Shown here: positions 11,076-33,726 of the stretch, piece by piece | Layout: each line of letters begins with the position of its first letter | How positions within the stretch are numbered: the first letter of the stretch is position 1 | Source: Schmidtea polychroa | Lineage: Eukaryota | Length of the DNA stretch: 64,000 bases | Direction: 5' to 3' | Assembly: GCA_044892525.1 (NCBI GenBank) | Contig: CM097887.1 | Span: 41,292,001-41,356,000, forward strand | Position numbers and translations under genes: made by a program | Notes under the pieces: generated by a model | What the model was told of the DNA's origin: nothing | Seen by the model: the letters and a program-made list of their open reading frames with translations, nothing else | The model's database searches: none

Positions 11076-11153
11076 TTTACTGTTAACCCCGAGCATTTCA
11101 TAGGTAAGAAAAATGTTTACTGTTTTTACTGTTAACCCCGAGCATTTCATAGG
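11076..11153 (+). repeat. 29-bp direct repeat pair in the LTR (copy at 37030-37107)
   Basis: tttactgttaaccccgagcatttcatagg at 11076-11104 and 11125-11153. Confidence 0.9.
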
Positions 11154-14873: not shown

Positions 14874-15359
14874 ATGACAGAATTCGCGAACCAAATGCAA
14901 CAACTGCTCAAGTTTATCGATATAGAAAACGACTCCCTAACAACACTGACGCATAAAAGAGAAAAAATCAACGCGATATTACTACAAGCAATCGGACAAA
15001 CACCAGTCGTACCTAATCATATGATATTAGCCACAGGCCTAAGTCGCCCAGATGGAAAAATAAACCCCGAAACCGTATATCAGTGGTATCAAGAGAGATT
15101 GAACCACCCAACATTAAATCTAGATTATCAGCGTCTAAAAGACTCACTAAATACAATACCAGATGCAATCGAACAAAAAATACAGGAAAAAGTTAACCAA
15201 TTACGAACTTGTATAGCCTGCAAACTCCGTCCTATTCGCGTATTATTCTTACCGTGTGGACACCTCAGTCACTGTGAAGAGTGTGTAAAAGACCTAAAAA
15301 GATGCACGATGTGCAAATATGAAATAAAAGAGACCCATATGGTCTATTATGGCGAATGA
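14874..15359 (+). CDS. 161-aa protein with C-terminal IAP/MDM2-type C3HC4 RING finger (putative E3 ligase)
   Basis: CIACKLRPIRVLFLPCGHLSHCEECVKDLKRCTMCKYEI at the extreme C-terminus. Acceptor ttttccaacag|ct precedes the ATG; AATAAA at 15463. Confidence 0.85.
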   Translation: MTEFANQMQQLLKFIDIENDSLTTLTHKREKINAILLQAIGQTPVVPNHMILATGLSRPDGKINPETVYQWYQERLNHPTLNLDYQRLKDSLNTIPDAIEQKIQEKVNQLRTCIACKLRPIRVLFLPCGHLSHCEECVKDLKRCTMCKYEIKETHMVYYGE

Positions 15360-15553
15360 AACGGCCGGCGATGTAACGGCAAGTATACGATGTTTGAACA
15401 AGAATGCATGAAATTGTTGAAGTAACACGTACTGTTAATGATTCAATCTTTATGTTTATGATAAATAAATTCGTCTTTAAAAAGTTTTGATGATTAGGAC
15501 TAATAAAATTTGCATGACGAATGAATATTTGCGTGTTTGTTTTGTTTTATTCC

Positions 15554-15580
15554 TTTTTTTTTTTTTTTTTTTTTTTTTTT
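15554..15580 (+). repeat. Poly(T)27 tract inside the element leader
   Basis: Uninterrupted T run. Confidence 0.9.
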
Positions 15581-15953
15581 GGAATCAAATGAAGAGAGGG
15601 TTGAATAACGTGGAATTAGTCCCAATATAGACTGCAGGGGTACAAACCGAGCCACCTTCGGGCGGTACGTCTTATTGCAAGAACCCGTTGGGAGGGGATA
15701 ACTGATCAACCCAAGTAAGAAGCGTAGGGCGGGGTACCATCGCATATGATGAGAAGTTTTTGCGACATGACTGATCACCATGCCAAGGTAGAAATGGATC
15801 ATCGCGATCGTCGTGCGTTTTGAGCAAGGGGGGAAAGGGGAAACACTCCCAAGCGGTAAAGATTAAGTCGACAAATTAAAAGTAGACAGAGAAAATGGTA
15901 AACTAGAGTAAAAGAAGAAAAGAGAAATAGAAGCATGCAGAGCGAGGAATATA

Positions 15954-16434
15954 GAAGATTGAGCTGTTGAATAGTGCCAGCCAGTCGTAAGATCGAGTTG
16001 TTGAATAATCCAACCGATCAGAAGGAAGAAGATTGAGCTGTTGAATAGTGCCAGCCAGTCGTAAGGTCGAGTTGTGAAAAGTCCAACCGATCAGGAAGGA
16101 GGAAGATTGAGCTGTTGAATAGTGCCAGCCAGTCGTAAGATCGAGTTGTTGAATAGTCCAACCGATCAGAAGGAAGAAGATTGAGCTGTTGAATAGTGCC
16201 AGCCAGTCGTAAGATCGAGTTGTTGAATAGTCCAACCGATCAGAAGGAAGAAGATTGAGCTGTTGAATAGTGCCAGCCAGTCGTAAGGTCGAGTTGTGAA
16301 AAGTCCAACCGATCAGGAAGGAGGAAGATTGAGCTGTTGAATAGTGCCAGCCAGTCGTAAGATCGAGTTGTTGAATAGTCTAACCGATCAGAAGGAAGAA
16401 GATTGAGCTGTTGAATAGTGCCAGCCAGTCGTAA
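15954..16434 (+). repeat. 74-bp tandem array, 6.5 copies, with A-B-A-A-B-A higher-order structure
   Basis: Units start at 15954, 16028, 16102, 16176, 16250, 16324 and 16398. B units carry ggtcgagttgtgaaaagt...caggaaggag. Confidence 0.95.
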
Positions 16435-17740
16435 AGGCCTAGAAAAGCGAGAGATAGCAGTTAAGCTACAATGAGATAATATTTAAATTACTAGTGATAT
16501 GGAATATTAAAGCTAGCTAGAACAAATTGAATGTAATTTTGAAAATTCGAGTTTAGAGAGGAAATAAACGAGCTCGTGGAAAAGAAAATAAGATTATAAT
16601 GAAAAAGGAAAGGGAAGAAGGAAACGAATTAAAGAGATAATAGAAAATAAAGAATAGATGAAATGATGATAATGAGTAAAGAGGAAAGTAACTAACTAAT
16701 TAAAGGGATCCCAGTGAAGTAGAGAAACTCTACGGAATTTTTTTTGGGTAAACCGGGAAAATGTATTTTTACCGGTTCCAGAGTAGAACCGAGTGGGATA
16801 ATAGTAAATACGAAAAGTAAAACAGCGACAACAGCGCAAAGGAATAAGAAAACGAAGGGGGGTAATAAGCAGAGACTGACAACGACCTATTTTTACTATA
16901 ATTGATAACGAATAGATAATTATTACGACTTTATAGATAATTGTTACTACCCCATATAGATAATTTAAAATCGACGGAAAATACGGGCTGATGGGATATT
17001 ATAACCCGCAGAAAGGATTTCACAAAAGATAAAGGGAGCACAAACAGAAACCTAAAAGGTGTCTGTTTTTGAATGTTGTAGAAAGAATGATGAAGTCGTG
17101 TAAGCAAATGCAACACGAGATCATTTTTTCATTTTAGATATCAAGCCAATCCAGCCAACCAAGACAATCCAGAACCTGCACAAAAGGAATTCGAAGAAAA
17201 TCGACAATCAACCAAGGATAAATCCATTCAGAACCCGCACCGAGAGACACAGCAACCGGAAGACTCCAGAACGGAAGAAGTATTAGCAGCCATCTGCCAA
17301 GGATTAGTAAATCTCCTCAGGATCTCAGTAGCAGATTCATACAGAATATTTATCGGAGGAAACACAATCAGAACCGAACGCGTCCAATTCAATAGCCACT
17401 AATTACCAAGAAGCGTAAGAAAGGAATCACGGATAAACCCAATCTTAGATCTTCTAGTAAGCCAGGAGACGTATTATTTTCAGGAGACGAATTACAACAA
17501 CTCAAAAGAGGACGATCCATTAAACATCAAAGAGGAATATCACAAGGATCCAGAAGAACCAATCAAGTACCCATATTTGACCAAGAAAATCTCGGATATA
17601 CCCCTAGTCGATCTCGAAGTAGAGAAAGTCTGTCCGATATCACTAATAGTTTAGCAACGTCAACCGAGGAGTTATCAGCCCAAAGTTTAGTCACATCGTT
17701 AGACAATTTAAAAGAAACAGACGAACCTAGAACACCAATC

Positions 17741-18646
17741 ATGACGAATGTCGTAAAAACCGACGAGTATAAAGAGAAGTTCAGAGGAGAACCTTTCAAC
17801 GGAAACGCAAACAAGCTAGCATCGTTCATAACTAATTTTGAAGTTTATATCACTGTGTGTGGATGGACACCCGAAGCAATTAGTAAAAGGATGCCGTTGT
17901 TTTTGTGCGATAGTGCATTAGAGGTATATTTAGAAGCTAAAGAGAGAGACACGAAATTAGAAAAGTGGGAAGATATTAAAACATTCCTGAAGAAAACCTT
18001 CGGAGCCAGTAAGCCAATCAACCAGGCGTTGGGCGAACTAGCAAATAGGAAACAAAGAGCAAACGAATCGATAACATTATATGCCAGTGAATTGCGGAGA
18101 TTAGCGAAGAAAGCAATGAATGGAAAATTACCCGAAGAAAATCTGATCGGTTATTTCATAGAGGGATTACGCCGAGAAGAAGTAAGAGCCTCAGTAGGTT
18201 GTCAAATGTGCAAAACATTAGAGGAAGCCATAGATTGGGCTACAAGATGCGAGCTCCACCTTCCAGCTCAAATGAATATTATGCAAGAGGAGGGAAGGAT
18301 AGCGACAGCAATAGCGAAAGCGGATAACGGAGATAACAACAATCAAGAACCGAAAATGAATCAATTTATACCAGGAGCGCACCAAATTTTCAAACCACCA
18401 CAAGGACGATCAAACGGGAATAATGGTAATCGTAACAACCCGAATAATGAGAACAATTTCAATAATCGACGAAATATGAACGATAACAAGCAGTGCCGAA
18501 CATGCGGTAAACCAGGACACTGGGACAGAGATTGTTATAGAAATTCAAATTGTAATCGTTGCGGACGGCGTGGACATACCGAAAATGTATGCCAATTGCG
18601 AGGCTGTTTTGACTGTGGTCAGCCAGGTCACATCTCCAGAGATTGC
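17741..18646 (+). other. gag: Gag: capsid-like domain plus three CCHC zinc knuckles
   Basis: KQRANESITLYASELRRL...YFIEGL, then CRTCGKPGHWDRDC, CNRCGRRGHTENVC and CFDCGQPGHISRDC (18494-18646). Confidence 0.93.
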
Positions 18647-21600
18647 CGAGAAAGGGGCCAACAACAACGACCACCACAGCGAAATAATAATTATATAGCG
18701 AATCCGCAACGACAAAGTAACCCTAACGAAGGAAAACAAATGAACGTTATGCAGGAAATTTCGCAGATGAAACAGATGATGCAACAAATGATGAGACCAA
18801 GACAAGAATCAGCACCCCAACAAACCCAGAATATACGTATGATGAGGAGTACCGAAAATCTCAACAATTATGAAGTGCATCAACATGTACAAGAATGGCA
18901 AAGGCTACAGGCCGAGGAAGAGAGGATAAAACAAGAACGCAATCAACAACGACAAGAACAACCATTGCGAATAAATATGATGAAGTTAGTAAAAGACATG
19001 AAGAGCCAGTATTGCTACAATTACGGGAAAAGCCCAAGGGTAGTACCCATGACTGAACCAGAAAAGGTAAAAGAAATAACAACGGAAATGAAAACAGAGA
19101 ATTCAACCACGATTTTAAAAGGAAACCAGAGAATTCAGAAAATATTCTGGAAAAAGATAAAGGATAAAATCGAAAAAGAACATAATAAAGCGAAAACCGA
19201 GACAGAAGATGAAAATAACAAGAGCAAGGAACAAACCAGTCAACTAAACCACCAAATGCTACAAGAATCAGAACCAGAAGAAACAACAATATTCGAAAGA
19301 AAGAAACTAAAGAAAGTACCAAGGATGAGAAACTTGCAAATCAATATGATGAAAAGGACAAAAGATGTAGCATCGTCAGACGAGGAAGAAGACTATGTAA
19401 GTAGTTTGGGTGGAGAAATACTACAGCTGAATGAAATAAGCGAACCTCCAAAAGGGGAAATCAAAGAGGAAGAAGGCGAAAGCGAGATAACCAGCGAAAG
19501 TGAAGACGAGGATATCGAAATAAAGTTGAGAAAAGGGAAGGAGGAAGCGATAAAACAAGTAGCGGAAATACTCCCAGTAGTAGTGAGGAACCAAGAGTTC
19601 ATTGACGTAATACCATTCAGGCGATTCGTGCAAAAAGTGATGAAATTGGAAAGAAACGAGAAAGATTTAATACCAAACGAGGAAAAATCAATTATAAAAA
19701 ATTATATGGAAAAAATGAAGCAGGCCGATACCACGCGGTATGTAATAAAAATCGGAACGAGTAGAGGACTTGAAAGAATGTGGATAAAAAATACAGTCAC
19801 CGACGAACTTTTCGATTGGATACGAGAGCATTTGGGAAGTTCGAGAAAGAAAGAATATCTGTATCAATACCAAGGAGAACAGATCAAACCAGATATGCAC
19901 TTAGTAGATGCACTAATATGGCCAGGGGAAACGCAAATACTGAAGTTGCATAAAGAAAAACAACCAGCCAACCTTTACGATTGGGCTAAAGATGCCAAGG
20001 CCGAATATGATTTTAATATCAAATTGAAATTAGAACAAATAAAACAATGTACTCTGAGACGAAACCTGGATAAGCTGATCAAACAAATTCAAGAACAAGT
20101 AGAAGACAACTGGGATTTACTCATCACCAGACGAGCCCCAGCCATGTACGAACTAATGAGCCGGTTGCGAGATACAGAAATGCTCCGAATGAGTGATTGG
20201 AGAACCATAAATTTGATCCACAAATATGGAAGGTTAAAAGAAACCCAGCCACAGAGGTTGGAAATAACCATATGGTTACCGAACGAAGAAAAACGACGAA
20301 TAAAAATGAGCAATCAGAGTACAGTGGATGACTTGGTATCAAAAATAAACCAAGAGATAACGGAAAAGGTACGTAGCGAAAGTAGTGATGGTATGGTGGA
20401 TGATGTAGTCATGATGTACGATAAGATAATATTACGAGCGGAGGACGACACCTCGTTAAGCGAAATGGGTATGTGGGACAATCATCAGATAATCAGGATA
20501 GTACCAATGGATGAATTCCGAACAAGAGATGTAACATATCAAAAAGAAATACGAGACCGGATGAAAACGTTATATCAAAAATCTACAGAAATAATTGAAA
20601 TCCACCAACAATGGTTAAAAGAAAAAGAGCTACAAGGAAAAATCACGAAATTAAATACCAGATCCTGCAGACGAACCCCATGGGAAAGAGTGTGGAATGC
20701 AGAAAGTAAGGAATGGGAAATCCGGAAAGGAACCTTCGTAGAAACAGACATTGGTGAGACAGAAAGTGAATCGGAGGAAGAAGAAGAGGAACCTCCAGAA
20801 TATGAAGAGGAAGCAAGGGAACAGACATCAGATGACGAAAGCGAGACGGATGTCACATCAGAAAGCGAAAATGAAGCAAGACATATTCATGCAATGAGGA
20901 AAAAGGAACGTGAATATGCTGATATGGACGGCGAGGAAGCGGCGGAAGCAAGAGAACGAGAAGAGAAAGAAAGATATAAACAATTAGGCGATATCTTAGC
21001 AATGGGAGCGAAAAATCAAAGACGCCAAGTAGTAGCGTTGGCTAACATCATCTTAAAGACATCAGAGAATATCCACAATCTGAGAGGAATGGCAAAGGCA
21101 ATAGAGGAATACCGGCAATATAATGAATGGTATCCAGAACAGCTAGAACAAATTATTCGAAAATGGAGAAATCAGGAATGGGCACAAGACACCCAGGAGA
21201 GGTATCACATCCGAATCAAGTATCCAGACAAGAGCATCGAGGAACTAGAGGTGCATCCAACAACAAAAATTAGAGAATTAAAAAAGAAATTAGCATATGA
21301 AACTCCATTCCATCTGCAACTGTTCGGAAAATCACTAGACGATAATGCAGACGTCGGGATAACACCCATGAGATTGGAAGAGACAAATGTATTAACAATG
21401 GCAGAAACGTTGGGAAAACCGTTAAAAAGGAAAAGTAAAATTATTAAACCAACACAAGGCAGTTTGAGCACTCCAAGTCCGAACAAAGCACCAAGTAAAT
21501 CTAATGAAACTGAAGAAGTTGAAGAGATAATCCTGGAAGATAGTGACGATGAACCAGGAGAAAGATCACCGCTATTAGTGAGATGGCCGACAGGAGCCGA

Positions 21601-24600: not shown

Positions 24601-27600
24601 CCAATCATCTAACAGCGATAGTGACGGCGATGATAACGGGAACGATAAATGTCTTTATCCAAACAGAAACCCAAACGAAAAACCAATGGAAACGGCACCA
24701 TATTGGGAAAAGGAAAAGACAAACACCTGGATCGCCAATGGAAGCTATATACCACCGGATATCGTGGGACCACAAGCAGCTTTGACCATGACACAAAATA
24801 TGTATCCGCAATTACCGAGTCAACCCGGTATGCTTTATATGCCAACACGACGTACCAAAAGTGTAGATCAAGCAGATGACGTAAGAACAATCGCAGCAAT
24901 GAGTCTACCTGGAGGTCCAGCAGTAACAGTTATGATTCAAATCAATGGTAAAGAAACCAATGCGATGATAGACACAGGAGCTAATGTATCAGCGATAGCG
25001 ATTAATCAAATTCCCAGTAAACACTGGAAGGATATCGAATCAACAACAATTCACATCATAGCATGTAGTAAAGAAACAGTGGACGTGGTCGGAAGATGGT
25101 GGACTACATTGAGATACCAGGACAACGAAATTGAAACGTATTTGGCAGTAATACCAAAACTTAGCGTACCATGCATAATCGGAACGGATTTGATGCCAGA
25201 ATTGTTAAAGGAAGTCGTAATTGACTTAACAACCATGTGTTTAAAAGACAAAACCGGTAGAATATGCAAAATGAATTCAGTCATCAGATGTCCAGAAAAA
25301 ATAATAGTACCAGCAAAATCACAGATGATTTGTCAGATAAAAGTGGATACGGGTATGGAAGGAGAAGTTATCTTTGAACCAAGCAAGTCATTTGAAAAGC
25401 GACGAGAATTACCACTCGCAAGAGAAATAATCACAATAAACCAAGAAGGAGTGATACCGCTCAACATCACGAATTTCGAAGAGGAAGACAAAATCATTTA
25501 TGAGAACGAAAAATTGGGAAGATTGACCCCAATGATGGACATAGAATTACCGAAAGTGACCAACGAGATGATCAAAGATGATGAATTATGGACAATAGAT
25601 AGTATGTTGTTGACGAATGACGAAAAGAAAAAATTGCACCGATTGTTGGTAGAATATAAAGATATATTCGCCATCTCAGATTTAGACTTGGGTACATGTG
25701 ATGTTACCTTACATGCAATACCACTCATAGACGAAACCCCAATTGCATTGAGACCATACAAGCTAGCAGAAATGCAGAAAGAAATAGCCGAAACAGAAGT
25801 ACAAAAGATGCTAGACGCAAAAGTAATCGAACCAAGTTGCTCACCCTGGCAATTCCCAGTGGTCATGGTGAAAAAGAAAGATGGCACCCAACGATTCTGT
25901 ATCGATTATCGGAAGTTAAACGCAGTGACCAAGAGAGATACCTACCCATTGCCGGACATCAATGAGATGTTATTGATGTTGCAAGGGGCAGCATATTTTA
26001 CTTCTTTAGATCTAAAAAGTGGATACTGGCAGATTAAAGTCAAAGATGAGGACAAAGAGAAAACAGCTTTCACGTTGGGACGAGATCTATATCAATTCAG
26101 GAAAATGCCATTTGGACTGACTAACGCACCAGCATCATTTCAACGGTGTATGAACTTTGTCACCCATGGAATCAAACAATGTATGGTATATATTGATGAT
26201 TTACTAATCTATTCAGCGACATTTGAACAACATCTAGAAGATATCCGAAACGTATTTATTAGATTAAGACAGTGGAAACTCAAACTCAAACCATCAAAAT
26301 GCGATTGGGCAAAGGAAAAAGTCACGTTTTTAGGACACATAGTGTCAGCTAAAGGAAAGGAGCCAGATCCAAGAAACATTGAGAAAATAAAAACATGTCC
26401 AGCACCGAAAACTGTCACCCAAGTTCAGGAATTTCTAGGATTATGCGGATACTATCGCAAATTTATCAAAAATTATGCAGGAATTGCAAAACCAATCCAG
26501 GAATTAGTAAAGAAGGACATTTCGTTCTTATGGGGGAAGGAACAACAAGAGGCGTTTGAAACGCTGAGAGACAAACTAATCGAAGCACCTATCCTCGTAC
26601 ACCCAGATTTTAAGAAGCCATTTCTATTGGCAACGGATGCAAGCGGGTACGCGGCAGGCGCGATTCTGGGACAATTGGACGATGAGGGAAAAGAGAGAGT
26701 AATCGGGTATTACAGTCGAACATTCAAAAAGCACGAAAAGAACTATTCGGTAACAGAACGAGAAGCATTGGCTATAATACAAGCTATCAAACACTTCCGA
26801 TATTTACTATGGGGACATGAGATATGCATAACCACAGACCATCAACCATTAGTGTGGTTAGGGCAACATAAAGAAGCGTCCAGTAGACTGATGAGATGGG
26901 CCATGCAATTGCAAGAATACTCCCCATTTATAAAATTCAAAGCGGGAAGAGCAAATGCCAACGCCGATTGTATGTCAAGATTTATTTTCCCAGATTTGGT
27001 GGATTCAGAAATGCAACGCATATGCTTAATAGTAGCGGAAGATTTGGATTTCTGTCAATTGCGAAAGGACCAACAAGAGGACGCGGAATTAAAACAAATT
27101 ATCGATTATATAAAAACCGGACAGACAGATGTATATGCGAAAGACCAAAAATTAAAAGAACATATGGATAAACACCGACACCGATATATTATAGAGAAAG
27201 ATTGGTTGCTGATAATGGATGGGGAAAAACGATTAATGTGTATACCGGAAAACCGACGAAAAGAGTTACTAACGCAATATCACGATGGGAGATTGGGAGG
27301 ACATATGTCATCGAAAAAGACGTTAGCAAGAATGAAACAGAAATATTTTTGGCCTACGTTAACGGAAGATGTAACCGAATGGGTAAAAAATTGTCTAACT
27401 TGTGCAACCAGGAAGAATACGGGATCGAAATGGAAAGCACCTTTAACGCCAATGCCAGTACCAATAGAACCAATGACAATGATATCCATGGACGTAGTTG
27501 GTCCACTACCAGAGTCAGATAAAGGAAACGTTTACATTCTGGTGATCACAGACTTTCTTACGAAATTCCCAGAAGCATTCGCGATGCCAGACCAAAAAGC

Positions 27601-30600
27601 TAAAACAATCGCAAAAATTTTGGTAGAAGAGATATGTTGCCGATATGGAACACCAAAACAAATCTTAACCGATCAGGGAACAAATTTTATGAGTGAGATA
27701 ATGAGCGAAGTAACAAATTACTTCAAAATAGCAAAACTAAGAACATCTCCATACCACCCTCAAACCAATGGGATGACGGAAAGATTTAATGGAACACTTA
27801 TACAAATGTTATCAAACTACGTTGACCGTCACCAACGAGATTGGGACGAATATATAAACCTATGTCTTATGGCGTACAGAATGTCGATTCACGCATCAAC
27901 GAAAATGAGCCCATTCAAATTAATGTACGGAAGAGAATGTAATATGCCAATGGACCTGGAATACCAACCACCGATATCGCAGTATATGGAGATCGATGAT
28001 TATGTTACGAAATTCAAGGAAAGAATGCAAGAAATTTGGGAAACTGCGGGATTAAATATCAAGTTCTACCAGGAAAGTTATAAAGATTTACACGATCGAA
28101 AGAAAAACGTGAAGCAACATACGTTCCAAACAGGTGATTGGGTAATGATAGAAACCCCGGAATTAATTCCAGGAACCACAAAAAAGTTACAACGCAACGG
28201 AAAAGGACCATATGAGATCTTATTCGTAGGCGAAACTAATGTAAGAGTGAAATTGGTAAATAACCCCTTTACCAGACCAATATACGTAAACGTGGCACGA
28301 TGCAAATCAATTCCAAAAACAGCCACTAGTCAACCAGAAGGCCGTACATTAACCACACGTTCGCAAACCTACCGAATGAACATGATGCAACAACTCGCAG
28401 AACCGATCACTGGACGATTAGGTATCCAACCATCAGAAGCGGAAAAGATTGTAAAAGAGGTAAAAATTAAAATACCTGGATGGGCGAAAGATCGATTAGA
28501 TTTCGAAATATTAGGAGGATTATTGACGATGATCGAGAACTATGCAAATAGAGAAAGGACACACCCATTATTGCGAGTAGTCAAAAGCCAATGGCCAATA
28601 TTATTTACAATAACAGATCATTACGGAGACACACCATTACACAAACTCATGAAAGTAGGTAACAACGAGCAAATACTAGAAACAATAGAAGCATTTCACG
28701 ACTGCAAGCGATCAACAGAACAAACAAACAACCAAGGTTACACACCATTAATGATAGCCGCAAACAGAGGCAAAACAAAAGACATTATAACCGCATTACT
28801 CGATACCGGATCGAAAATAACTACACAAGACCACGAGCGGAAAAACGCTCTACACCATGCTATCGAAGGGAGAAGTACCGAGGCGTTCACGTCATTGATG
28901 GAACTACTATCATATGAGGACAATCGGGAAGTCGGAAACATGTATGATGGATTGTTAACAGCGATCAAAGAAAAACTGACGACAATTACCGGAATATTAA
29001 TTACATGGAGAAATCCAATTCGAAACGATTATATGATCAACGTAAACGAAGCGTTCACGAGAGGAGAGAACACGCTGATGAGAGAAGCTATGAAAGGACA
29101 TCAGTTATTCGAAATCCCGAATCAATTACTAGAACGAGGGATAAAATTCACAAATCATAAAGACGAACAGTTAGCAAAAAAGCGAATCGACACATTCGAA
29201 AAATCCCTATTCCAATTTACTAACCAAGTACGAAATAAATATTGGGAAACGGTAAGTGTGTTATATATGATGGACACAATGAATAACATCCGCGAGAATT
29301 ACCTGGATATTATCCAAATACTTACAGCAGAGGAACGAATCAATAATCCAAACGGAAAGAAAACGAAAATAAGGTATGAGAAATCCAGGGAATCAAAGTC
29401 AACAACGAACCAAACGGTCACAAACAACGTCATCGAAACCAAATCAATGAGTATAGATCAAGAGGCAATAATACGCAAAGCAAAAGAAGTGTTCTTTGAG
29501 GAAATGCTAGAGCTGCCAGACGAAATAATATTGTCAAAAATAATAAAAGCCGTACACACATACGCAAGAGATCAAACCACGGATTTAGATATCGGGAAAA
29601 TCAAAACCTTCTTGCCTCGAGCATTTACGATGGTAACGAAGGATTCCAGAACACCCCTACAACAAGCAATACTAGCAGCGAAAGAAAATAGAGCAATAAC
29701 GATCGTGAGAATCCTTGGAGAGATGGGCGAGGAAACCAACACGAAAAATGAACAAGGTGAAACCGCCATGATGTATGCAGCTATAACGAAAATACACCCA
29801 AAAACACTCCACATCCTACATCAATCAGGATCGAAACTAGACGAAAAGTCCAATGAAGGAAATTCCACCTTGGACTGGGCAACCATACAGCCAAACTTAG
29901 AAATGATCAGATTTATTTGCAAAAATGCGACAAAAGAAGAAGTCGAAAATATGTGCAAAAACACATCTCAGTTTCAATGGAATGCGGTACGGAAAAATCT
30001 AGAAGCAATGAAATTATTATTAACCTGGAGAGTACCACAAAATAATAAATATGCGATAAATGTAAACGAATTCTACGAAAACGGAGAAAATGCGATGGTA
30101 AAGAATACCCTAACTAAGGGGGGGACACCTAAAATAATTTTAATAGTATTAAATAGAGAAGACCTAAAATTCACGCAAAATCAGAACGAGCAACAACGAA
30201 TTGGGAAACATCGTCGTATGCAATTGAGAGAGTTAGTTAAAGAATGGAATAGAAAGAGACATGCTGCAACGGGTAGAAAAGAGTTTGAATTCGAAGCAAA
30301 ATTAGCAAGAAACAGAGTGCTAACAGCATATCGCAGATTATTGAACGATATAAATGTCGAGGACGACATTTTAAACGACAGCGGGGGAGATAAACACGAT
30401 GACAATAACGGAAAAGGCCGAAAGGAGGATAAAGAGAAAAGAGAACAGGAGGAGGGTAAACCGGAAAACAAGGATTCGGATACGAAAAGAGAGGGAAACA
30501 GCCCGGGAACTAAGACCAAAGAGGAGGAAAAATCGAATAATGGAAAACAGAGGGTATGCCTACCTTTCACTAACAAAGAAATAGAGACAAATATGATATT

Positions 30601-31594
30601 AATGATAATTATGCTTACCATGATAGAGTTAGTAACAGCTCAGGGAGGGACGAGAACGATAAAAGAAACCAAAGAAGCGGAGAATCAAGATAGCAAAGAG
30701 GATGAACTAAAGCAAGAAAAGAAAAAGCAAGCACAAGAGCAGCAGTGGGATTTAAAGGAAGAATGGGACTTAAAGGAAAGGTGCATACTAGGAAGATGCA
30801 TGTCTAGAGCGTATCAGAAACTAGTACTGATAAATGAGGCCACAGAACCAATAACAGAAGTAAGAATACAAGAAGCATACCGAAATCGAGACGGGAAGAG
30901 AATAACGAACGTCAAAGGAAAAGAGGTACACCTAGGAAAAGGTGGTGAAGTAGTAATAACGCAGATCCAACCTAGAAAAGAGCACAAAGTCTGTATTTCA
31001 AGATTAGGACCAGGCGAGAGATGCCATCAATATGTGACGCAGCAGCAGCCGCCGAAAGAATACACGGTTTGTATCTGGAGGAATGAATCAAAAAGAGAAT
31101 GCCGACGATACCCGGGGAAAAGAGGAAAGAAAAGAAAAAACCACGACGAAAAGAACGAAGGAGGAAAGCACAAGAAAACTGGTGAGGAAGCTCAGGACAA
31201 CTATGTTTCGGAGGAAGAGATGGAAAAAATACAAAAGATGGCAAAGGAGGGTATGAACGAGGAAATAGCAAGAATACGGGAAATGATGAAAGGAAATGGC
31301 AAAAGAGGAAACGAGAAAAGTACAGAAGCGATATCAACATTAACAAACAAGGAAAAACCAGAGAGTATAAGCGTGAAGCAGATGATGTGGATCAGTGGGA
31401 TAATAATAACAGGGGCATTCCTAATCATAACGGGGGGAACAATAAAAATAATTAAGGATAAACGACATCGCGGAGAACTAGAGATGACTCGAATCAGAAA
31501 TTTCCAACATCGAGTGAAACGACCAAGTGATATCAAACAAGAACAGTGGGTGGAGGCCTGGAACGCTCAGCGCCCTCCAAACTCACGTATATAG
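17741..31594 (+). CDS. gag-env-pol: 4,617-aa Gag-Ubl-Bcl2-Env(G)-PR-RT-RH-IN-ANK-TM polyprotein
   Basis: Single frame, with no stop codon or frameshift. Motifs: DTG (24971), YIDD (26189), TDAS (26633), HHCC zinc finger and D-D35E (27491, 27671, 27779), GPY motif near 28205. Confidence 0.97.
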   Translation: MTNVVKTDEYKEKFRGEPFNGNANKLASFITNFEVYITVCGWTPEAISKRMPLFLCDSALEVYLEAKERDTKLEKWEDIKTFLKKTFGASKPINQALGELANRKQRANESITLYASELRRLAKKAMNGKLPEENLIGYFIEGLRREEVRASVGCQMCKTLEEAIDWATRCELHLPAQMNIMQEEGRIATAIAKADNGDNNNQEPKMNQFIPGAHQIFKPPQGRSNGNNGNRNNPNNENNFNNRRNMNDNKQCRTCGKPGHWDRDCYRNSNCNRCGRRGHTENVCQLRGCFDCGQPGHISRDCRERGQQQRPPQRNNNYIANPQRQSNPNEGKQMNVMQEISQMKQMMQQMMRPRQESAPQQTQNIRMMRSTENLNNYEVHQHVQEWQRLQAEEERIKQERNQQRQEQPLRINMMKLVKDMKSQYCYNYGKSPRVVPMTEPEKVKEITTEMKTENSTTILKGNQRIQKIFWKKIKDKIEKEHNKAKTETEDENNKSKEQTSQLNHQMLQESEPEETTIFERKKLKKVPRMRNLQINMMKRTKDVASSDEEEDYVSSLGGEILQLNEISEPPKGEIKEEEGESEITSESEDEDIEIKLRKGKEEAIKQVAEILPVVVRNQEFIDVIPFRRFVQKVMKLERNEKDLIPNEEKSIIKNYMEKMKQADTTRYVIKIGTSRGLERMWIKNTVTDELFDWIREHLGSSRKKEYLYQYQGEQIKPDMHLVDALIWPGETQILKLHKEKQPANLYDWAKDAKAEYDFNIKLKLEQIKQCTLRRNLDKLIKQIQEQVEDNWDLLITRRAPAMYELMSRLRDTEMLRMSDWRTINLIHKYGRLKETQPQRLEITIWLPNEEKRRIKMSNQSTVDDLVSKINQEITEKVRSESSDGMVDDVVMMYDKIILRAEDDTSLSEMGMWDNHQIIRIVPMDEFRTRDVTYQKEIRDRMKTLYQKSTEIIEIHQQWLKEKELQGKITKLNTRSCRRTPWERVWNAESKEWEIRKGTFVETDIGETESESEEEEEEPPEYEEEAREQTSDDESETDVTSESENEARHIHAMRKKEREYADMDGEEAAEAREREEKERYKQLGDILAMGAKNQRRQVVALANIILKTSENIHNLRGMAKAIEEYRQYNEWYPEQLEQIIRKWRNQEWAQDTQERYHIRIKYPDKSIEELEVHPTTKIRELKKKLAYETPFHLQLFGKSLDDNADVGITPMRLEETNVLTMAETLGKPLKRKSKIIKPTQGSLSTPSPNKAPSKSNETEEVEEIILEDSDDEPGERSPLLVRWPTGAEMWTNNQPSTSYQQPTKLNIKEIIDNTTETETDEQFQKQREPTKVTPESQTDKIIDEWNEWLRNNDSSLPRTDNERNPNYENTREAGTMMEKRAKGRPKKQGEKSEFKTKEQLKQEQGQVRLEKLDKIVWDLKEAQPTIERGEKWIRELLKDMLIITNPQLRRLWQRKVASTEARQLWHTISGIIPKLIKEKTKTTKTDWDETKRVIEQLTTNANDDEHHLVVITYLMYNLMGLAARKIPNKQFANHVEMTVSIIENTIEPHIIRAGGWKRLIQAPRKNEQERSMQVRLKKLLNELEWELPMKDPASRKASINSLMMTMMIWMLCTSGATGFTIYDCDNMIMRDKYSLRDIEECRQASPNKLDIVRTKVTYHVYQESDFIRTQARECVVSKKVLAYYCGQYSYSTLILPGLDKEIVSIQREDCKELFRTGALKMHNGVTIHGQTGMIKTESVYVAGKVKSSDGSCNGGTYTIRGEVISGVVVIESYTVELKEYEAQFDANNYQMKTNPACKATENVCRTGVSTIIYEANTQKCRLQLLKSALFNEVKGEIYENENDEDGNDRVRMRNGKPMPPSPREKRLSTQKTPTALITDDPDLGMRFIKEKETTKCDSIVYKTNYAGIYMSRQIIDRAVGKIATEDVKLYLYANNKMDFLFHRGQTTLQKVYYDLIQNDCSLNKEILKTKLAIAITHPDNTMPSLPLPDGHFGRMVGEVMYTYQCTKTYARMPEKSILPEKRCANELEIRYKGQNRFVQPVTRIMNPVGFYPNLFNCSNAYGPLYERPDGKWMMLPGKTISEEPKKFGLIELATELDFKPIDVSNGGMYSPEDLETARLNVLFPARRESILSNMVTITGGTNYQSGPNYELLLSPDHFQQATSNMMKAMWGRFLVFGQMMAGILGIILIIQIVRVILTQMLACFDIYKREKKVNWKMIVGFLPFLAKTMVLHGHSKDIHRIKRLIKILTKIKGTDEEVGRRFRKVMYDEATRRQLKKNKPKFLDRFRSQSSNSDSDGDDNGNDKCLYPNRNPNEKPMETAPYWEKEKTNTWIANGSYIPPDIVGPQAALTMTQNMYPQLPSQPGMLYMPTRRTKSVDQADDVRTIAAMSLPGGPAVTVMIQINGKETNAMIDTGANVSAIAINQIPSKHWKDIESTTIHIIACSKETVDVVGRWWTTLRYQDNEIETYLAVIPKLSVPCIIGTDLMPELLKEVVIDLTTMCLKDKTGRICKMNSVIRCPEKIIVPAKSQMICQIKVDTGMEGEVIFEPSKSFEKRRELPLAREIITINQEGVIPLNITNFEEEDKIIYENEKLGRLTPMMDIELPKVTNEMIKDDELWTIDSMLLTNDEKKKLHRLLVEYKDIFAISDLDLGTCDVTLHAIPLIDETPIALRPYKLAEMQKEIAETEVQKMLDAKVIEPSCSPWQFPVVMVKKKDGTQRFCIDYRKLNAVTKRDTYPLPDINEMLLMLQGAAYFTSLDLKSGYWQIKVKDEDKEKTAFTLGRDLYQFRKMPFGLTNAPASFQRCMNFVTHGIKQCMVYIDDLLIYSATFEQHLEDIRNVFIRLRQWKLKLKPSKCDWAKEKVTFLGHIVSAKGKEPDPRNIEKIKTCPAPKTVTQVQEFLGLCGYYRKFIKNYAGIAKPIQELVKKDISFLWGKEQQEAFETLRDKLIEAPILVHPDFKKPFLLATDASGYAAGAILGQLDDEGKERVIGYYSRTFKKHEKNYSVTEREALAIIQAIKHFRYLLWGHEICITTDHQPLVWLGQHKEASSRLMRWAMQLQEYSPFIKFKAGRANANADCMSRFIFPDLVDSEMQRICLIVAEDLDFCQLRKDQQEDAELKQIIDYIKTGQTDVYAKDQKLKEHMDKHRHRYIIEKDWLLIMDGEKRLMCIPENRRKELLTQYHDGRLGGHMSSKKTLARMKQKYFWPTLTEDVTEWVKNCLTCATRKNTGSKWKAPLTPMPVPIEPMTMISMDVVGPLPESDKGNVYILVITDFLTKFPEAFAMPDQKAKTIAKILVEEICCRYGTPKQILTDQGTNFMSEIMSEVTNYFKIAKLRTSPYHPQTNGMTERFNGTLIQMLSNYVDRHQRDWDEYINLCLMAYRMSIHASTKMSPFKLMYGRECNMPMDLEYQPPISQYMEIDDYVTKFKERMQEIWETAGLNIKFYQESYKDLHDRKKNVKQHTFQTGDWVMIETPELIPGTTKKLQRNGKGPYEILFVGETNVRVKLVNNPFTRPIYVNVARCKSIPKTATSQPEGRTLTTRSQTYRMNMMQQLAEPITGRLGIQPSEAEKIVKEVKIKIPGWAKDRLDFEILGGLLTMIENYANRERTHPLLRVVKSQWPILFTITDHYGDTPLHKLMKVGNNEQILETIEAFHDCKRSTEQTNNQGYTPLMIAANRGKTKDIITALLDTGSKITTQDHERKNALHHAIEGRSTEAFTSLMELLSYEDNREVGNMYDGLLTAIKEKLTTITGILITWRNPIRNDYMINVNEAFTRGENTLMREAMKGHQLFEIPNQLLERGIKFTNHKDEQLAKKRIDTFEKSLFQFTNQVRNKYWETVSVLYMMDTMNNIRENYLDIIQILTAEERINNPNGKKTKIRYEKSRESKSTTNQTVTNNVIETKSMSIDQEAIIRKAKEVFFEEMLELPDEIILSKIIKAVHTYARDQTTDLDIGKIKTFLPRAFTMVTKDSRTPLQQAILAAKENRAITIVRILGEMGEETNTKNEQGETAMMYAAITKIHPKTLHILHQSGSKLDEKSNEGNSTLDWATIQPNLEMIRFICKNATKEEVENMCKNTSQFQWNAVRKNLEAMKLLLTWRVPQNNKYAINVNEFYENGENAMVKNTLTKGGTPKIILIVLNREDLKFTQNQNEQQRIGKHRRMQLRELVKEWNRKRHAATGRKEFEFEAKLARNRVLTAYRRLLNDINVEDDILNDSGGDKHDDNNGKGRKEDKEKREQEEGKPENKDSDTKREGNSPGTKTKEEEKSNNGKQRVCLPFTNKEIETNMILMIIMLTMIELVTAQGGTRTIKETKEAENQDSKEDELKQEKKKQAQEQQWDLKEEWDLKERCILGRCMSRAYQKLVLINEATEPITEVRIQEAYRNRDGKRITNVKGKEVHLGKGGEVVITQIQPRKEHKVCISRLGPGERCHQYVTQQQPPKEYTVCIWRNESKRECRRYPGKRGKKRKNHDEKNEGGKHKKTGEEAQDNYVSEEEMEKIQKMAKEGMNEEIARIREMMKGNGKRGNEKSTEAISTLTNKEKPESISVKQMMWISGIIITGAFLIITGGTIKIIKDKRHRGELEMTRIRNFQHRVKRPSDIKQEQWVEAWNAQRPPNSRI
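19733..21400 (+). other. Up to three ubiquitin-like domains (19733-19951, 20255-20506, 21203-21400)
   Basis: The third, YHIRIKYPDKSIEELEVHPTTKIRELKKKL...LQLFGKSLDD, follows the ubiquitin pattern. The first two are weaker beta-grasp-like matches. Confidence 0.6.
21960..22420 (+). other. Bcl-2-like helical domain
   Basis: BH2-like IEPHIIRAGGWKRLIQ; degenerate BH1 position (DEHHLVVITYLMYNL); helical amphipathic sequence throughout. Confidence 0.65.
22520..24430 (+). other. env: Chuvirus-like viral fusion glycoprotein with internal signal peptide and TM anchor
   Basis: Signal SINSLMMTMMIWMLCTSGATG|FTIYDC. Conserved motifs YDC..SL..C, C....YYCGQYSYS, DGSCNG, GEVMYTYQC, FVQPVTRI and GGMYS. REKR furin-type site at 23324-23335; TM at 24242-24347. 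Confidence 0.85.
24905..28320 (+). other. pol: Pol: retropepsin, linker, RT, RNase H, integrase
   Basis: AMIDTGANVS; PWQFPVVMVKKKDG..RFCIDYRKLN; YIDD; LATDAS..EREALA..TDH..ADCMSR; H..GH..C..C; MDVVGPLP, TDQG, GMTERFN; GKGPY. All catalytic residues are present. Confidence 0.97.
28613..30180 (+). other. Two ankyrin-repeat modules duplicated with a 340-aa period
   Basis: GDTPLH/GYTPLMIAA/KNALHHA and RTPLQQA/GETAMMYAA/NSTLDWA. Both TPL (28631 vs 29651) and TWR (29006 vs 30026) anchors are offset by exactly 1,020 nt. Confidence 0.85.
30593..31453 (+). other. C-terminal signal peptide + small Cys-containing ectodomain + TM (type I membrane module)
   Basis: MILMIIMLTMIELVTA|Q; FN3-like strands ITQIQPRKEHKVCI and PPKEYTVCIW; TM MMWISGIIITGAFLIITGGTI followed by KIIKDKR. 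Confidence 0.6.
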
Positions 31595-31754
31595 AAAGGA
31601 ATATGACTGTATATAATTGTAAAAAGTAAGTATATCTTATGTATATAACAGTACTATATCTTTATATAAGCGCGGTATCAATATTATACAATAACGGGAA
31701 TCATAAAATAAAATTAAATTTACATAAGAGCTGAAAAGTGTATATAAATTAGGA

Positions 31755-32114
31755 ATGGATCAAGGAAATAACGAAATGAACCACAATACAGTAACTGAAG
31801 AATTATGGAAGCAACAATGTGCCGTATTAGCACAATTAGTGTCCAATTTGCAAGAACAAGGACTGACGATGCACAGAAACCTGATCGAGAGTATGAACAG
31901 AGGATTTAGTTATTTGAAGATAATTGAAGACCAGAGGTTAAAAATCGAACAAATGCAAAGAGAGATAGAGAGGATAACCCAATATAGCCGTCGACAGGAA
32001 ATTGAAATAGACAGAATGATGGAGGAAGCAGAACAGACGGAAATAGAAGACTGGTCGGAATGGCTAATGAATAGAGAGGAGAGCGGACACGAAGCCGACT
32101 CTTCCGAACCCTAA
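31755..32114 (+). CDS. 119-aa coiled-coil accessory protein
   Basis: Same A-rich codon style as the polyprotein; heptad-like E/Q/R-rich sequence. Confidence 0.7.
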   Translation: MDQGNNEMNHNTVTEELWKQQCAVLAQLVSNLQEQGLTMHRNLIESMNRGFSYLKIIEDQRLKIEQMQREIERITQYSRRQEIEIDRMMEEAEQTEIEDWSEWLMNREESGHEADSSEP

Positions 32115-32199
32115 ACCAAACCTAGCTCAAAATGTAAATAATTGTAAATAAAATATCGAACCTGTATCGATAAGAACTATTTGTACATATAATTATAGA

Positions 32200-33588
32200 A
32201 TGGATAAACGACAAAGAGAAGAGTTCAGAGAGATTGTCGAGCAAGTCCGAAAATCTACAACGATCAGAATACACAAACATGTTATGTGCGGAATATGTGA
32301 AAAGTTGTTAAAGGAACCTCACCAAACGCAATGTGGATGCAGAGTATGTAAAGAATGTATCAGTGAAGCAATAAAGAATAGACCACAGAAGTGCCCGGTG
32401 TGTAAAGAGACACTAATATCGAGTTTAGAAGACACTAACGAGGATAAAGCCGCAGTGAAAGACATGTTAAACACCAACCTGGGATGCAAAAATGCCCCAT
32501 GCGAATGGAAAGGAGTAATATGGAAGGTAGTACAACATATGGGAGAATGTATGTACAGAATTGGCCAGTGTGAAAGGTGCCATAAAACCATTCGAGCAAG
32601 CGAAGAAAAAGAGCATCAAAGGCAGTGTGAAGAGAGATTGGAAAGATGTGAACACTGTGGAGAAATAGATACGTGGATAAATCTCACCCTCAAACATCAC
32701 AATGTCCAAGAGGAGAGAGTATGTGCGGAGTTCAGTGGGGAATGCCCAAACGGATGTAACCAAGGGGAAATAATGAAGGTGGCACAGCATCTAAGGGAAT
32801 GCGAAAAGAAAAGAATGACATGTGTACTAGGTAGATGGGGTTGTCAGAAATTACTACACCGAGGTGAGTTACCACATCATTTAGTAGAAAATGCTTCAAC
32901 TCACGCAGAAATGTGGTCGACTGCGTTACAAGAAAGCGAAGAGAAAGTAAAACAAATGGAGATAGAGATAACATCGTTGAAAGTGTTAGTCAAAGAACTA
33001 CTAGAAGAAAGGGAAGCGTTCGAAGAAGCCCGAGCAAACATAAAGATGCAAATAAACCGAACAGAAATTAGTAATAATCAGGCCAAGGAGCTACATCAGA
33101 AAATACGGGAAATAAATCTAAATGAGATAACCCCAACAGCACCCTACATATGGAAAATAACGGGAGTAAAAGAAAGAATACGAAAAGCAAAAACCGGAGA
33201 AGAGACAAGAATAACAAGTCCTACATTCCATTCTTGGAAAAATGGGTACAAAATGAAAATGAAGGTATATCCCAACGGGGACGGAACCGGATTGGATACG
33301 CACTTTTCGATTTTCTTTCTGTTATGTAAAGGAGAATACGACGAAATATTAGAATGGCCGTTCCAGGCAAAAATCGATATTACTCTGATGAACAACCAAA
33401 GTATACATGAGCAAAGCTTCAAAACAACGGGGAATCAAATAGCTTACCAGAGGCCCCTCAACGAAGAAGGATCAGCAACAGGAGCACCCACGTTCATCTC
33501 ACAACAAAGAGTGGAAGATATGGCGAGAAATGATACCATATATATCAAGATGACCGTGAGGAAAGAGGAGAAGGGTAGAACGGAATAA
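32200..33588 (+). CDS. TRAF: Full-length intronless TRAF homolog (RING, TRAF zinc fingers, coiled coil, MATH)
   Basis: CGIC...CGCRVC..C...CPVC; repeated C..C...H...C fingers; MATH motifs YIWKI, GYKMKMKVYPNGDGTGLDTHFSIFF, GEYDEILEWPF. Confidence 0.93.
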   Translation: MDKRQREEFREIVEQVRKSTTIRIHKHVMCGICEKLLKEPHQTQCGCRVCKECISEAIKNRPQKCPVCKETLISSLEDTNEDKAAVKDMLNTNLGCKNAPCEWKGVIWKVVQHMGECMYRIGQCERCHKTIRASEEKEHQRQCEERLERCEHCGEIDTWINLTLKHHNVQEERVCAEFSGECPNGCNQGEIMKVAQHLRECEKKRMTCVLGRWGCQKLLHRGELPHHLVENASTHAEMWSTALQESEEKVKQMEIEITSLKVLVKELLEEREAFEEARANIKMQINRTEISNNQAKELHQKIREINLNEITPTAPYIWKITGVKERIRKAKTGEETRITSPTFHSWKNGYKMKMKVYPNGDGTGLDTHFSIFFLLCKGEYDEILEWPFQAKIDITLMNNQSIHEQSFKTTGNQIAYQRPLNEEGSATGAPTFISQQRVEDMARNDTIYIKMTVRKEEKGRTE

Positions 33589-33726
33589 CCAATCGAATAA
33601 TGTTGTATATAATAATCTGTATATATCGGTGTATATAACCAATAAAATATTATATAATAATAGTATGAAAACCCTAAATACGAAAACCCAAAAATGATGC
33701 GAAAATTTCCCAAGAAACAGTAAATA

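What the first reader, a model, noticed from the sequence alone, without database searches (positions are those of the whole stretch)
14874..33588. The accessory genes converge on one pathway: TNF/NF-kB, ubiquitin and apoptosis
An IAP-type RING, TRAF, Bcl-2-like domain, ankyrin (IkB-like) repeats, Ubl domains and a possible CARD all occur in one element. Established: TRAF-IAP ligases, IkB and Bcl-2 control death-receptor and innate signalling, and large DNA viruses encode mimics of them. Inference: the element keeps host (stem) cells alive and immunologically silent, which would be a poxvirus/baculovirus-like strategy in a retroelement.
Basis: inference. Interest (0 to 1): 0.8.

Follow-up and report, generated by a model that had tools for sequence, protein, structure and literature searches.

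The report
Planarian giant retroelement's captured signalling genes
This is a copy of a known 30-kb virus-like jumping gene of planarian flatworms that carries captured host genes for ubiquitin and cell-death signalling; most of the genes are real and conserved, but the idea was published in 2019 and they do not add up to one TNF/NF-kB pathway.

Summary
The stretch lies in an intact 29.8-kb Ty3/gypsy element with identical 3,847-bp LTRs and a 4,617-aa Gag-Env-Pol polyprotein. It is a Burro/GYPSM1-type element of planarians. Arkhipova & Yushenova 2019 already list its MATH, BIR, ankyrin, BCL2-like and ubiquitin-like cargo and suggest it meddles with apoptosis and ubiquitination.

Confirmed here: a full-length TRAF, an IAP-type RING, two ankyrin modules, Ubl domains and a diverged Bcl-2-like domain, all under purifying selection (dN/dS about 0.04-0.23).

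Not supported:
- The RING protein has no BIR, so it is no IAP. A sister family carries the true IAP.
- The Bcl-2-like domain has lost BH1 NWGR.
- The ankyrins show no IkB hallmark.
- No CARD was found.
- Planarians lack a clear NF-kB.
- BURRO1 RNA appears in differentiated cells, not stem cells, on single PIWI knockdown.

Best reading: separately released accessory proteins that tune host TRAF/ubiquitin stress and survival signalling. They are loosely coupled, exchangeable modules, not one pathway. New lead, weak: the helical domain in front of each Ubl folds like a TFIIS N-terminal (TND/LW) domain.

The parts
10685..14531 (+). 5' LTR, 3,847 bp, TG...CA, preceded by target-site duplication AAAT
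   Evidence: 100% identical to the 3' LTR; flanks
13209..13997 (+). 262-aa ORF inside the LTR (second copy 39163-39951), no family; conserved at the protein level in diverged copies
14874..15359 (+). 161-aa ORF: helical N-terminal part plus IAP-type C3HC4 RING, no BIR; splice-acceptor-like pyrimidine tract and AG just before the ATG
   Evidence: dN/dS 0.10-0.23
15953..16434 (.). 74-bp tandem repeat, 6.5 copies, in the leader
17741..31594 (+). 4,617-aa Gag-cargo-Env-PR-RT-RH-IN-ANK-membrane polyprotein
17894..18649 (+). Gag: Retrotrans_gag domain and three CCHC knuckles
19532..20506 (+). first and second helical-domain + Ubl units (aa about 598-922)
   Evidence: alignment with unit 3 and sister families, joint profile; low-confidence in the model
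   Evidence: AlphaFold pLDDT 84.7; Foldseek top hit TFIIS LW domain E 0.28; VIA MED26 TND Z 7.3
21197..21412 (+). third ubiquitin-like domain, no C-terminal di-glycine
21953..22426 (+). Bcl-2-like domain: BH2 GGW kept, BH1 NWGR lost; preceded by a K/R-G-R-P (AT-hook-like) motif at about 21881
22586..24430 (+). in-frame Env, Monjiviricetes-type fusion glycoprotein, with a transmembrane helix at aa 2178-2196
24929..28315 (+). protease, conserved PR-RT spacer, RT, RNase H, integrase
28451..29170 (+). ankyrin module 1 with helical N-cap
29441..30193 (+). ankyrin module 2, duplicate of module 1 (its N-cap is the other possible 'CARD')
30581..31594 (+). C-terminal type I membrane protein part (hydrophobic stretches aa 4281-4299 and 4545-4563)
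   Evidence: dN/dS 0.09-0.16
31755..32114 (+). 119-aa coiled-coil ORF, directly upstream of TRAF in this and the sister family
32200..33588 (+). full-length TRAF (RING, zinc fingers, coiled coil, MATH/TRAF-C), 462 aa
33727..36412 (+). three further accessory ORFs: 369-aa and 250-aa coiled coils, 222-aa predicted membrane protein
36639..40485 (+). 3' LTR, followed by AAAT

Best explanation
This is a recently inserted, envelope-bearing Burro-type Ty3/gypsy element whose accessory cargo is made as protein and acts as a set of separate host-interaction modules. Shown: the domains exist and are under purifying selection. Inferred: (a) the element's protease cuts the polyprotein at a recurring R-I-N/H/C-M-M-type motif, which frees Gag, the helix-Ubl units, the Bcl-2-like piece and the ankyrin piece; (b) the small ORFs are made from spliced or trans-spliced RNAs; (c) the captured TRAF and the BIR-less RING act as ubiquitin-ligase adaptors or decoys that dampen the host's TRAF-centred stress and innate-immune signalling (in planarians TRAF/TBK1 rather than a canonical NF-kB), and the Bcl-2-like domain is a non-canonical survival factor or scaffold; (d) this helps cells in which the element is derepressed, mostly differentiating cells, to survive long enough for it to replicate. 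The modules are gained, lost, duplicated and swapped independently, so they are a loose toolkit and not one pathway.
For: Identical LTRs with a target-site duplication. TRAF: 92 of 92 scored genome matches are 95-100% identical and 91 have no internal stop. dN/dS is 0.04-0.15 for Ubl, helical and Bcl-2-like parts and 0.10-0.23 for the RING ORF (20 copies), and 0.04-0.23 for TRAF and 0.05-0.14 for the ankyrins, similar to Gag (0.05) and Env (0.08). The TRAF is 27-31% identical over its whole length to intronless host TRAFs and shares their Cys-for-His RING variant. Modularity: the sister family (RT 88-89% identical) has MATH inside the polyprotein, a BIR-RING IAP after TRAF and one ankyrin module; this family has no polyprotein MATH, no BIR and two ankyrin modules. 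More distant env-bearing families keep helix-Ubl and Bcl-2-like parts but have no ankyrin after integrase. The RING ORF has dS 0.75-1.4 in copies whose polyprotein has dS 0.09-0.12, which points to recombination. The motif occurs 4 times, at domain borders, against 0.14 in shuffles, and at matching places in the sister family (pattern chosen after seeing the data). An acceptor-like AG sits 0-2 nt before the RING ATG in 8 of 8 copies looked at. Host TRAF2/3/5 are TBK1-regulated immune genes (PMC13563047 passages), and TRAF-like proteins regulate cell survival in planarians (PMC7586133 title and abstract start).
Against: No direct evidence of expression, cleavage, ligase activity or binding. Purifying selection shows a protein function, not an immune or apoptotic one. 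The dN/dS pairs all share the window copy and are not independent. RNAi of BURRO1 did not improve the smedwi-2 phenotype (PMC8532177 passage). The RING lacks the Pro of the final CPxC, and the sister ortholog has Asp at the linchpin position (role of these residues recalled), so it may be a poor ligase. No conserved TRAF-binding motif was found in the element's membrane-protein tails.
Confidence: 0.55

Rival explanations
1. One reading: all cargo converges on TNF-receptor/NF-kB and death-receptor signalling (TRAF-IAP ligase, IkB mimic, Bcl-2, CARD) and keeps stem cells alive and immunologically silent.
For: TRAF and IAP-type RING are real. The sister family has TRAF next to a true BIR-RING IAP. 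The host has CARD, Bcl-2 and TRAF genes. Some viral Bcl-2 folds without BH1 still bind BH3 helices or block NF-kB signalling (recalled).
Against: No BIR in this family; no CARD support; generic ankyrins without an IkB degron; BH1 lost in 5 of 5 families; no clear planarian NF-kB; BURRO1 silent in neoblasts unless three PIWIs are removed; modules vary independently between families.
Confidence: 0.15
2. Much of the polyprotein cargo serves the element's own replication in the nucleus or particle. The helix-Ubl units are TND-like transcription/chromatin adaptors, the K/R-G-R-P motif binds AT-rich DNA, and the Bcl-2-like bundle is a structural Gag-extension or Env-leader domain. Only TRAF and RING touch host signalling.
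For: Helix-Ubl and Bcl-2-like parts sit between Gag and Env in all five env-bearing families examined, including three that show no ankyrin cargo after integrase. Foldseek's top hit for the helical domain is the TFIIS LW domain, with TFIIS, Elongin A and LEDGF TND-fold domains further down; VIA aligns 84 of 90 residues of the MED26 TND at Z 7.3; the sequence profile also touches MED26 (E 0.66). The G-R-P motif precedes the Bcl-2-like domain in 3 of 5 families.
Against: All TND scores are below significance. HEAT/ARM pieces score as high or higher (Z up to 9.3). The profile-profile score against host TNDs (15.3) does not beat block shuffles (max 15.7), and a host TND profile does not find the element.
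Confidence: 0.22
3. The cargo is selected because it benefits the host (domesticated stress or immune genes spread by the element), or is carried along with little function.
For: The host has itself expanded TRAF/MATH genes (29 host rows in the tree), so extra TRAFs could be tolerated or useful.
Against: Selection acts along element lineages at the same strength as on Gag, Env and integrase, in copies many of which are broken elsewhere. Element MATH domains group apart from host TRAFs (93/88 support, not starred). Neutral carriage is excluded by dN/dS well below 1.
Confidence: 0.08

Closest known systems
Burro / GYPSM1 giant gypsy-like LTR retrotransposons of planarians (Jurka 2007; Grohme et al. 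2018; as described in Arkhipova & Yushenova 2019, PMC6431247)
   Same: About 30 kb, multi-kb LTRs, leader tandem repeat, one giant ORF with Gag (three CCHC), Ubl, BCL2-like, in-frame Env between Gag and PR, PR-RT-RH-IN and ankyrins; MATH/TRAF as accessory cargo; many copies. A family in the same genome with polyprotein MATH, BIR and a 4,791-aa open frame matches the Burro1 description and is 88-89% identical in RT.
   Different: Polyprotein 4,617 aa without MATH; no BIR anywhere; two ankyrin modules; three helix-Ubl units; TRAF is a complete separate downstream ORF. It may be one of Burro-2, -3 or -4, whose domain maps I could not see.
Cellular TRAF2/3/5 and planarian intronless TRAFs
   Same: Full RING-zinc finger-coiled coil-TRAF-C architecture; 27-31% identity to host TRAFs.
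   Different: Encoded by a mobile element in dozens of near-identical copies; no receptor or partner known.
cIAP/XIAP and baculovirus IAPs
   Same: IAP-type RING with a C-terminal aromatic tail.
   Different: No BIR, so no caspase, IBM or TRAF2 binding by the known route; unrelated helical N-terminus. The true IAP is in the sister family.
Poxvirus/herpesvirus Bcl-2-like and ankyrin immune modulators (recalled)
   Same: Captured host domains, a degenerate BH1, ankyrin repeats in a virus-like element.
   Different: No homology tested or found; no F-box/PRANC-type partner domain was reported by Pfam after the ankyrins; here the domains are parts of a retroelement polyprotein.
TFIIS N-terminal (TND/LW) domains of TFIIS, MED26, Elongin A, LEDGF
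   Same: Small helical bundle of about 80 aa; top Foldseek hit.
   Different: Scores not significant; fused to Ubl and repeated, an arrangement I know of in no cellular TND protein (recalled).

Membership tests
Burro/GYPSM1 | Giant gypsy-like LTR element of about 30 kb in many copies | tested here: met
   29,801 bp, LTRs 3,847 bp; at least 92 TRAF and 150 RING matches in the genome. Slightly under the published 'exceeds 30 kb'.
Burro/GYPSM1 | Single polyprotein with Gag (3 CCHC), Ubl, BCL2-like, in-frame Env, PR-RT-RH-IN, ankyrin | tested here: met
Burro/GYPSM1 | MATH/TRAF cargo (in ORF1 or as accessory ORF) | tested here: met
   separate full-length TRAF ORF
Burro1 (strict) | BIR domain and MATH inside ORF1 | tested here: not met
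   both present in the sister family. So this is a Burro-type element but not Burro1 itself.
Burro/GYPSM1 | dUTPase-like domain between PR and RT | tested here: inconclusive
   conserved spacer, 64% identical to the sister; no Pfam or PDB hit
IAP | At least one BIR domain | tested here: not met
IAP | C-terminal IAP-type RING | tested here: met
TRAF | RING, TRAF zinc fingers, coiled coil and TRAF-C/MATH | tested here: met
Anti-apoptotic Bcl-2 family | BH2 motif and Bcl-2-like helical sequence | tested here: met
   (weak: best E 2e-5 in a sister family, 2.5e-4 as profile)
Anti-apoptotic Bcl-2 family | BH1 NWGR motif | tested here: not met
   replaced in all 5 element families, kept in host proteins
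Anti-apoptotic Bcl-2 family | Complete Bcl-2 fold with a BH3-binding groove | tested here: inconclusive
   model of this part mostly pLDDT 40-60
IkB | Ankyrin repeats | tested here: met
IkB | N-terminal DSGxxS degron | tested here: not met
   only the protease active site and one intra-repeat match
IkB | Binding to a Rel-homology dimer | not testable with these tools
   no IkB among 60 of 333 PDB rows shown, a list biased to long repeat proteins; no host RHD was retrieved (control also blank)
CARD / death fold | Six-helix death fold or CARD profile match | tested here: inconclusive
   no match; the one helical domain folded alone has four core helices and no death-fold row in the top 50; the other helical units were not folded alone
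Ubiquitin-like modifiers | Beta-grasp fold | tested here: met
   unit 3, Z 11.7
Ubiquitin-like modifiers | C-terminal di-glycine for conjugation | tested here: not met
   absent in 3 of 3 units; they are integral Ubl domains
TND (TFIIS N-terminal domain) | TND fold and profile match | tested here: inconclusive

The most novel reading that the evidence does not exclude
The oldest cargo of these elements is not apoptotic. The repeated helix-Ubl unit, present in all five env-bearing families examined, is a captured TFIIS-N-terminal (TND/LW, LEDGF-IBD-like) domain fused to a Ubl. With the neighbouring AT-hook-like motif it lets the element recruit host transcription-elongation or chromatin factors, or tether its own integration complex. 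That would be a retroelement that encodes its own version of the kind of host cofactor lentiviruses borrow, with TRAF, IAP and ankyrin modules added later.
Probability: 0.2. Interest if true: 0.72.

Novelty: already known. Interest (0 to 1): 0.32.

Why it matters
Burro elements are the clearest case of a retrotransposon with a large-virus-style set of captured signalling genes, and their function is untested. This check shows that the cargo is under selection as protein and sorts solid from weak domain calls, which gives specific targets: TRAF, the BIR-less RING, the BH1-less Bcl-2 domain and the helix-Ubl unit. It also matters for annotation, since dozens of 'TRAF', 'IAP' and 'Bcl-2' hits in this genome belong to elements and not to host genes. 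The concept itself is not new.

Tried and rejected
- Expression: no RNA holder listed. Laid contigs of three runs only guessed to be RNA and one unlabelled run cover the element patchily. No evidence either way.
- Complex prediction of the Bcl-2-like domain with a host BH3 segment: no answer, score 0.01, alignment not used. Not evidence.
- Host NF-kB and TNF: Pfam RHD and TNF searches of the own genome were blank, but so were the controls, and exons are searched singly. Not counted.
- CID for the helical domain (my first guess): no support.
- TND by profile-profile: not above shuffles; host TND HMM blank on element ORFs.
- CARD and death folds were not listed in any fold search; absence from a list does not exclude them.
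- Positive selection on the RING ORF: rejected, its extra divergence is synonymous too.
- UBA in the RING ORF: suggested by a pairwise match to the pre-RING part of the sister IAP, but no Pfam, PDB or Atlas support.
- dUTPase: no hit.
- TRAF-binding motifs in the element's membrane tails: none conserved.
- Public protein searches: none for aa 640-1600, none for the helical profile, 1 for TRAF, 2 for the helical profile among representatives, both Burro-like fragments. No range outside planarians was shown.
- The 973-aa model was mostly low-confidence (mean pLDDT 42.6); only the helix and Ubl of unit 3 were usable.
- A Pfam scan of the sister families' C-terminal ORFs failed on a frame slip and was not repeated.
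- Literature: searches for retrotransposon + IAP + Bcl-2 + captured + Gypsy and for TFIIS N-terminal domain + retrotransposon + ubiquitin-like + polyprotein gave 0 papers. Grohme et al. 2018 was not held and Jurka 2007 was not seen; their text and supplements may already map this family.
Full report
**What the element is.** The finding lies inside one LTR element, 10685-40485. The two LTRs are 100% identical over 3.85 kb, begin TG, end CA, and are flanked by AAAT, so the insertion is recent. The plus strand is A-rich (41% A). One 4,617-aa frame (17741-31594) carries Retrotrans_gag, three CCHC knuckles, a Monjiviricetes-type fusion glycoprotein (E 7e-71), protease, RT, RNase H, integrase and ankyrins. 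A RING ORF lies upstream and five ORFs, including TRAF, lie downstream. The genome (781 Mb, four large contigs) holds many copies: 92 of 92 scored TRAF matches are 95-100% identical, 91 without a stop, and 150 of 150 scored RING matches are 71-100% identical, 144 without a stop. That the host is a dugesiid planarian is inferred from the element type.

**It is in print.** Arkhipova & Yushenova 2019 (PMC6431247; I read section 7 whole) describe Burro/GYPSM1 with MATH_TRAF_C, BIR, ankyrin, BCL2-like, Ubl/SUMO-like, dUTPase-like and in-frame Env. [quoted passage not shown] That is the core of the finding. I could not see Grohme 2018 or Jurka 2007; their supplements may already map this family as Burro-2, -3 or -4. 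A family in the same genome fits the Burro1 description (polyprotein MATH, 4,791-aa frame, BIR) and is 88-89% identical to ours in RT, 80% in integrase and 59% in Env.

**TRAF and RING.** TRAF is solid: RING, zinc fingers, coiled coil and MATH, best PDB hits TRAF3/2/1 at E about 1e-27. It is 27-31% identical over its length to intronless host TRAFs and shares their Cys-for-His RING. The seven element MATH domains form one side of a branch against 29 host rows (93/88, not starred; one of the 30 fetched host loci was dropped for an internal stop). The RING is IAP-type: the top nine of 23 PDB rows are cIAP/XIAP. It has no BIR. The sister IAP's BIR matches neither the window (best E 0.08) nor 10 of 10 downstream stretches of this family, but 4 of 4 sister controls. 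The sister family has its own upstream RING ortholog (27-28% identical) besides the IAP, so ours is that gene, and the IAP is missing here.

**Ankyrin, Ubl, Bcl-2, CARD.** The two ankyrin modules are a duplication that includes a helical N-cap (E 2e-19 over 250 columns). They have no DSGxxS degron, and no IkB is among the 60 rows shown of 333, a list biased to long repeat proteins. Ubl unit 3 is confirmed by fold (Z 11.7). Units 1 and 2 align with it but were low-confidence in the model. None ends in di-glycine. The Bcl-2-like call is weak alone (E 0.018), present in 7 of 8 sister ORFs (E 2e-5 to 0.014), and a profile without host sequences finds Bcl-xL/Bcl-2 at E 2.5e-4, mostly through the BH2 helix. 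BH1 NWGR is replaced in 5 of 5 families and kept in host proteins. No test supported a CARD, though only one helical domain was folded alone.

**Are they proteins?** Direct expression data were not available. Selection says yes. Against 20 diverged copies (19 for the polyprotein), pooled pN/pS was 0.04-0.15 for the Ubl and helical units, 0.06 for the Bcl-2-like domain, and 0.23 and 0.10 for the two halves of the RING ORF, beside 0.05 for Gag and 0.08 for Env. For TRAF (6 copies, 4 regions) dN/dS was 0.04-0.23 with one region undefined; for the ankyrins 0.05-0.14; for the other downstream ORFs 0.05-0.32. All pairs share the window copy, so they are not independent.

**One pathway?** The evidence says no. 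The parts vary independently. The sister has polyprotein MATH, an IAP and one ankyrin module; this family has no polyprotein MATH, no IAP and two modules. Three more distant families keep helix-Ubl and Bcl-2-like parts and have a different membrane protein after integrase. The RING ORF has dS 0.75-1.4 in eight copies whose polyprotein has dS 0.09-0.12, which points to recombination. On the host side, PMC13563047 (passages) found no clear NF-kB homolog in S. mediterranea, only divergent Rel-homology proteins, while TBK1 controls TRAF2/3/5 expression in gut and epidermis. My own RHD and TNF searches were blank with blank controls and do not count. PMC8532177 (passages) reports BURRO1 as intestinally enriched, derepressed in differentiated cells on smedwi-2 RNAi, seen in neoblasts only after triple PIWI RNAi, and its knockdown did not improve the phenotype. 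Those data are for BURRO1, not this family. PMC7586133 (abstract start and passages) ties planarian TRAF-like proteins to cell survival and notes 150-212 TRAF-like contigs; 'transpos' and 'retro' do not occur in it. PMC7958881, PMC11410931, PMC13238120, PMC12849515 and the held part of PMC10187017 were seen as passages only and added nothing decisive.

**How it most likely works.** Shown: domain content, modularity and selection. The RING ORF has an acceptor-like AG 0-2 nt before its ATG in 8 of 8 copies, so small ORFs probably have their own spliced RNAs. TRAF and the BIR-less RING most likely act as ubiquitin adaptors or decoys in host TRAF-centred stress signalling, and the BH1-less Bcl-2 domain as a non-canonical survival factor or scaffold, in cells where the element escapes PIWI control (0.55). 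The single TNF/NF-kB/stem-cell model gets 0.15, a mainly nuclear or structural role for the polyprotein cargo 0.22, and host benefit or drift 0.08.

**The one new lead.** Each Ubl is preceded by an 80-aa helical domain in all five families. Unit 3 folds confidently (pLDDT 84.7). Foldseek's best hit is the human TFIIS LW domain (E 0.28, probability 0.89, TM 0.53), with TFIIS-IWS1, Elongin A and LEDGF domains lower down. VIA aligns 84 of 90 residues of the MED26 TND at Z 7.3, but HEAT/ARM pieces reach Z 9.3. Profile tests do not beat shuffles. A K/R-G-R-P motif (AT-hook-like, recalled) precedes the Bcl-2 domain in 3 of 5 families. One search for this in print found nothing. I give the TND reading with a nuclear role 0.2.

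**Verdict.** Novelty: already known. Interest 0.32.

Noticed in passing
window 14874-15359 vs L035, L037, L039-L042, L048, L049: The RING ORF is far more diverged (dS 0.75-1.4) than the polyprotein of the same copies (dS 0.09-0.12), so old RING alleles are swapped between young elements.
   Followed up: partly
window 14850-14873, 31595-36412: Acceptor-like pyrimidine tract and AG right before the RING ATG in both families. The downstream ORFs are packed with 40-160-nt AT-rich gaps, some with AG just before the ATG and a TGTAAATAAA word; this looks like an operon resolved by (trans-)splicing.
   Followed up: partly
window polyprotein aa 410, 533, 1048, 3545: Recurring R/Q/H-I/M-N/H-M/A-M motif at domain borders, matched in the sister family; probable protease sites.
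   Followed up: partly
window 22426-22585: The Bcl-2-like domain is followed within about 35 aa by the hydrophobic Env leader, which could serve as its tail anchor after signal-peptidase cleavage.
   Followed up: no
window 14539-14556: The sequence 7 nt inside the 5' LTR end resembles a tRNA-Pro primer-binding site (recalled, not tested); no clear polypurine tract before the 3' LTR.
   Followed up: no
L024-L027, L056-L059: Sister (Burro1-like) family: upstream RING ORF, MATH in the polyprotein, one ankyrin module, then coiled-coil ORF, TRAF, 392-aa BIR-RING IAP and a 533-aa coiled coil. It fits a TRAF-IAP model better than this window's family.
   Followed up: partly
L051:1-1692, L053:1-1488, L055:8035-9099: More distant env-bearing families have, after integrase, a signal peptide, a beta-rich (FN3-like by eye) ectodomain and a transmembrane helix in place of ankyrins.
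   Followed up: no
window 52375-53367 (+) and 55229-59646 (-): Two decayed pieces of other env-bearing Burro-like families (Env; Env plus RT/RH), broken by frameshifts.
   Followed up: partly
window 13209-13997: A 262-aa ORF inside each LTR is conserved as protein (64-66% identity with saturated synonymous sites); no family known.
   Followed up: partly
G000:C2 about 105-124 Mb and 1-5 Mb (L098-L119): Large host cluster of about 190-aa MATH-only TRAF genes, plus a few intronless full-length TRAFs (L090-L093, L095).
   Followed up: partly
G000:C4 89.9-90.8 Mb (L028, L126): Seven near-identical host Bcl-2-family genes with intact BH3 and BH1; also dispersed multicopy 152-aa Bcl-2-like ORFs (L029).
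   Followed up: no
window 6387-7655 (+), 42371-43075 (-), 43314-43486, 48001-48075: Flanking features: a 422-aa ORF with no Pfam family, a 234-aa ORF with a weak C-type lectin hit (E 0.05), an 84-bp hairpin inverted repeat, and an ATT x25 microsatellite.
   Followed up: no
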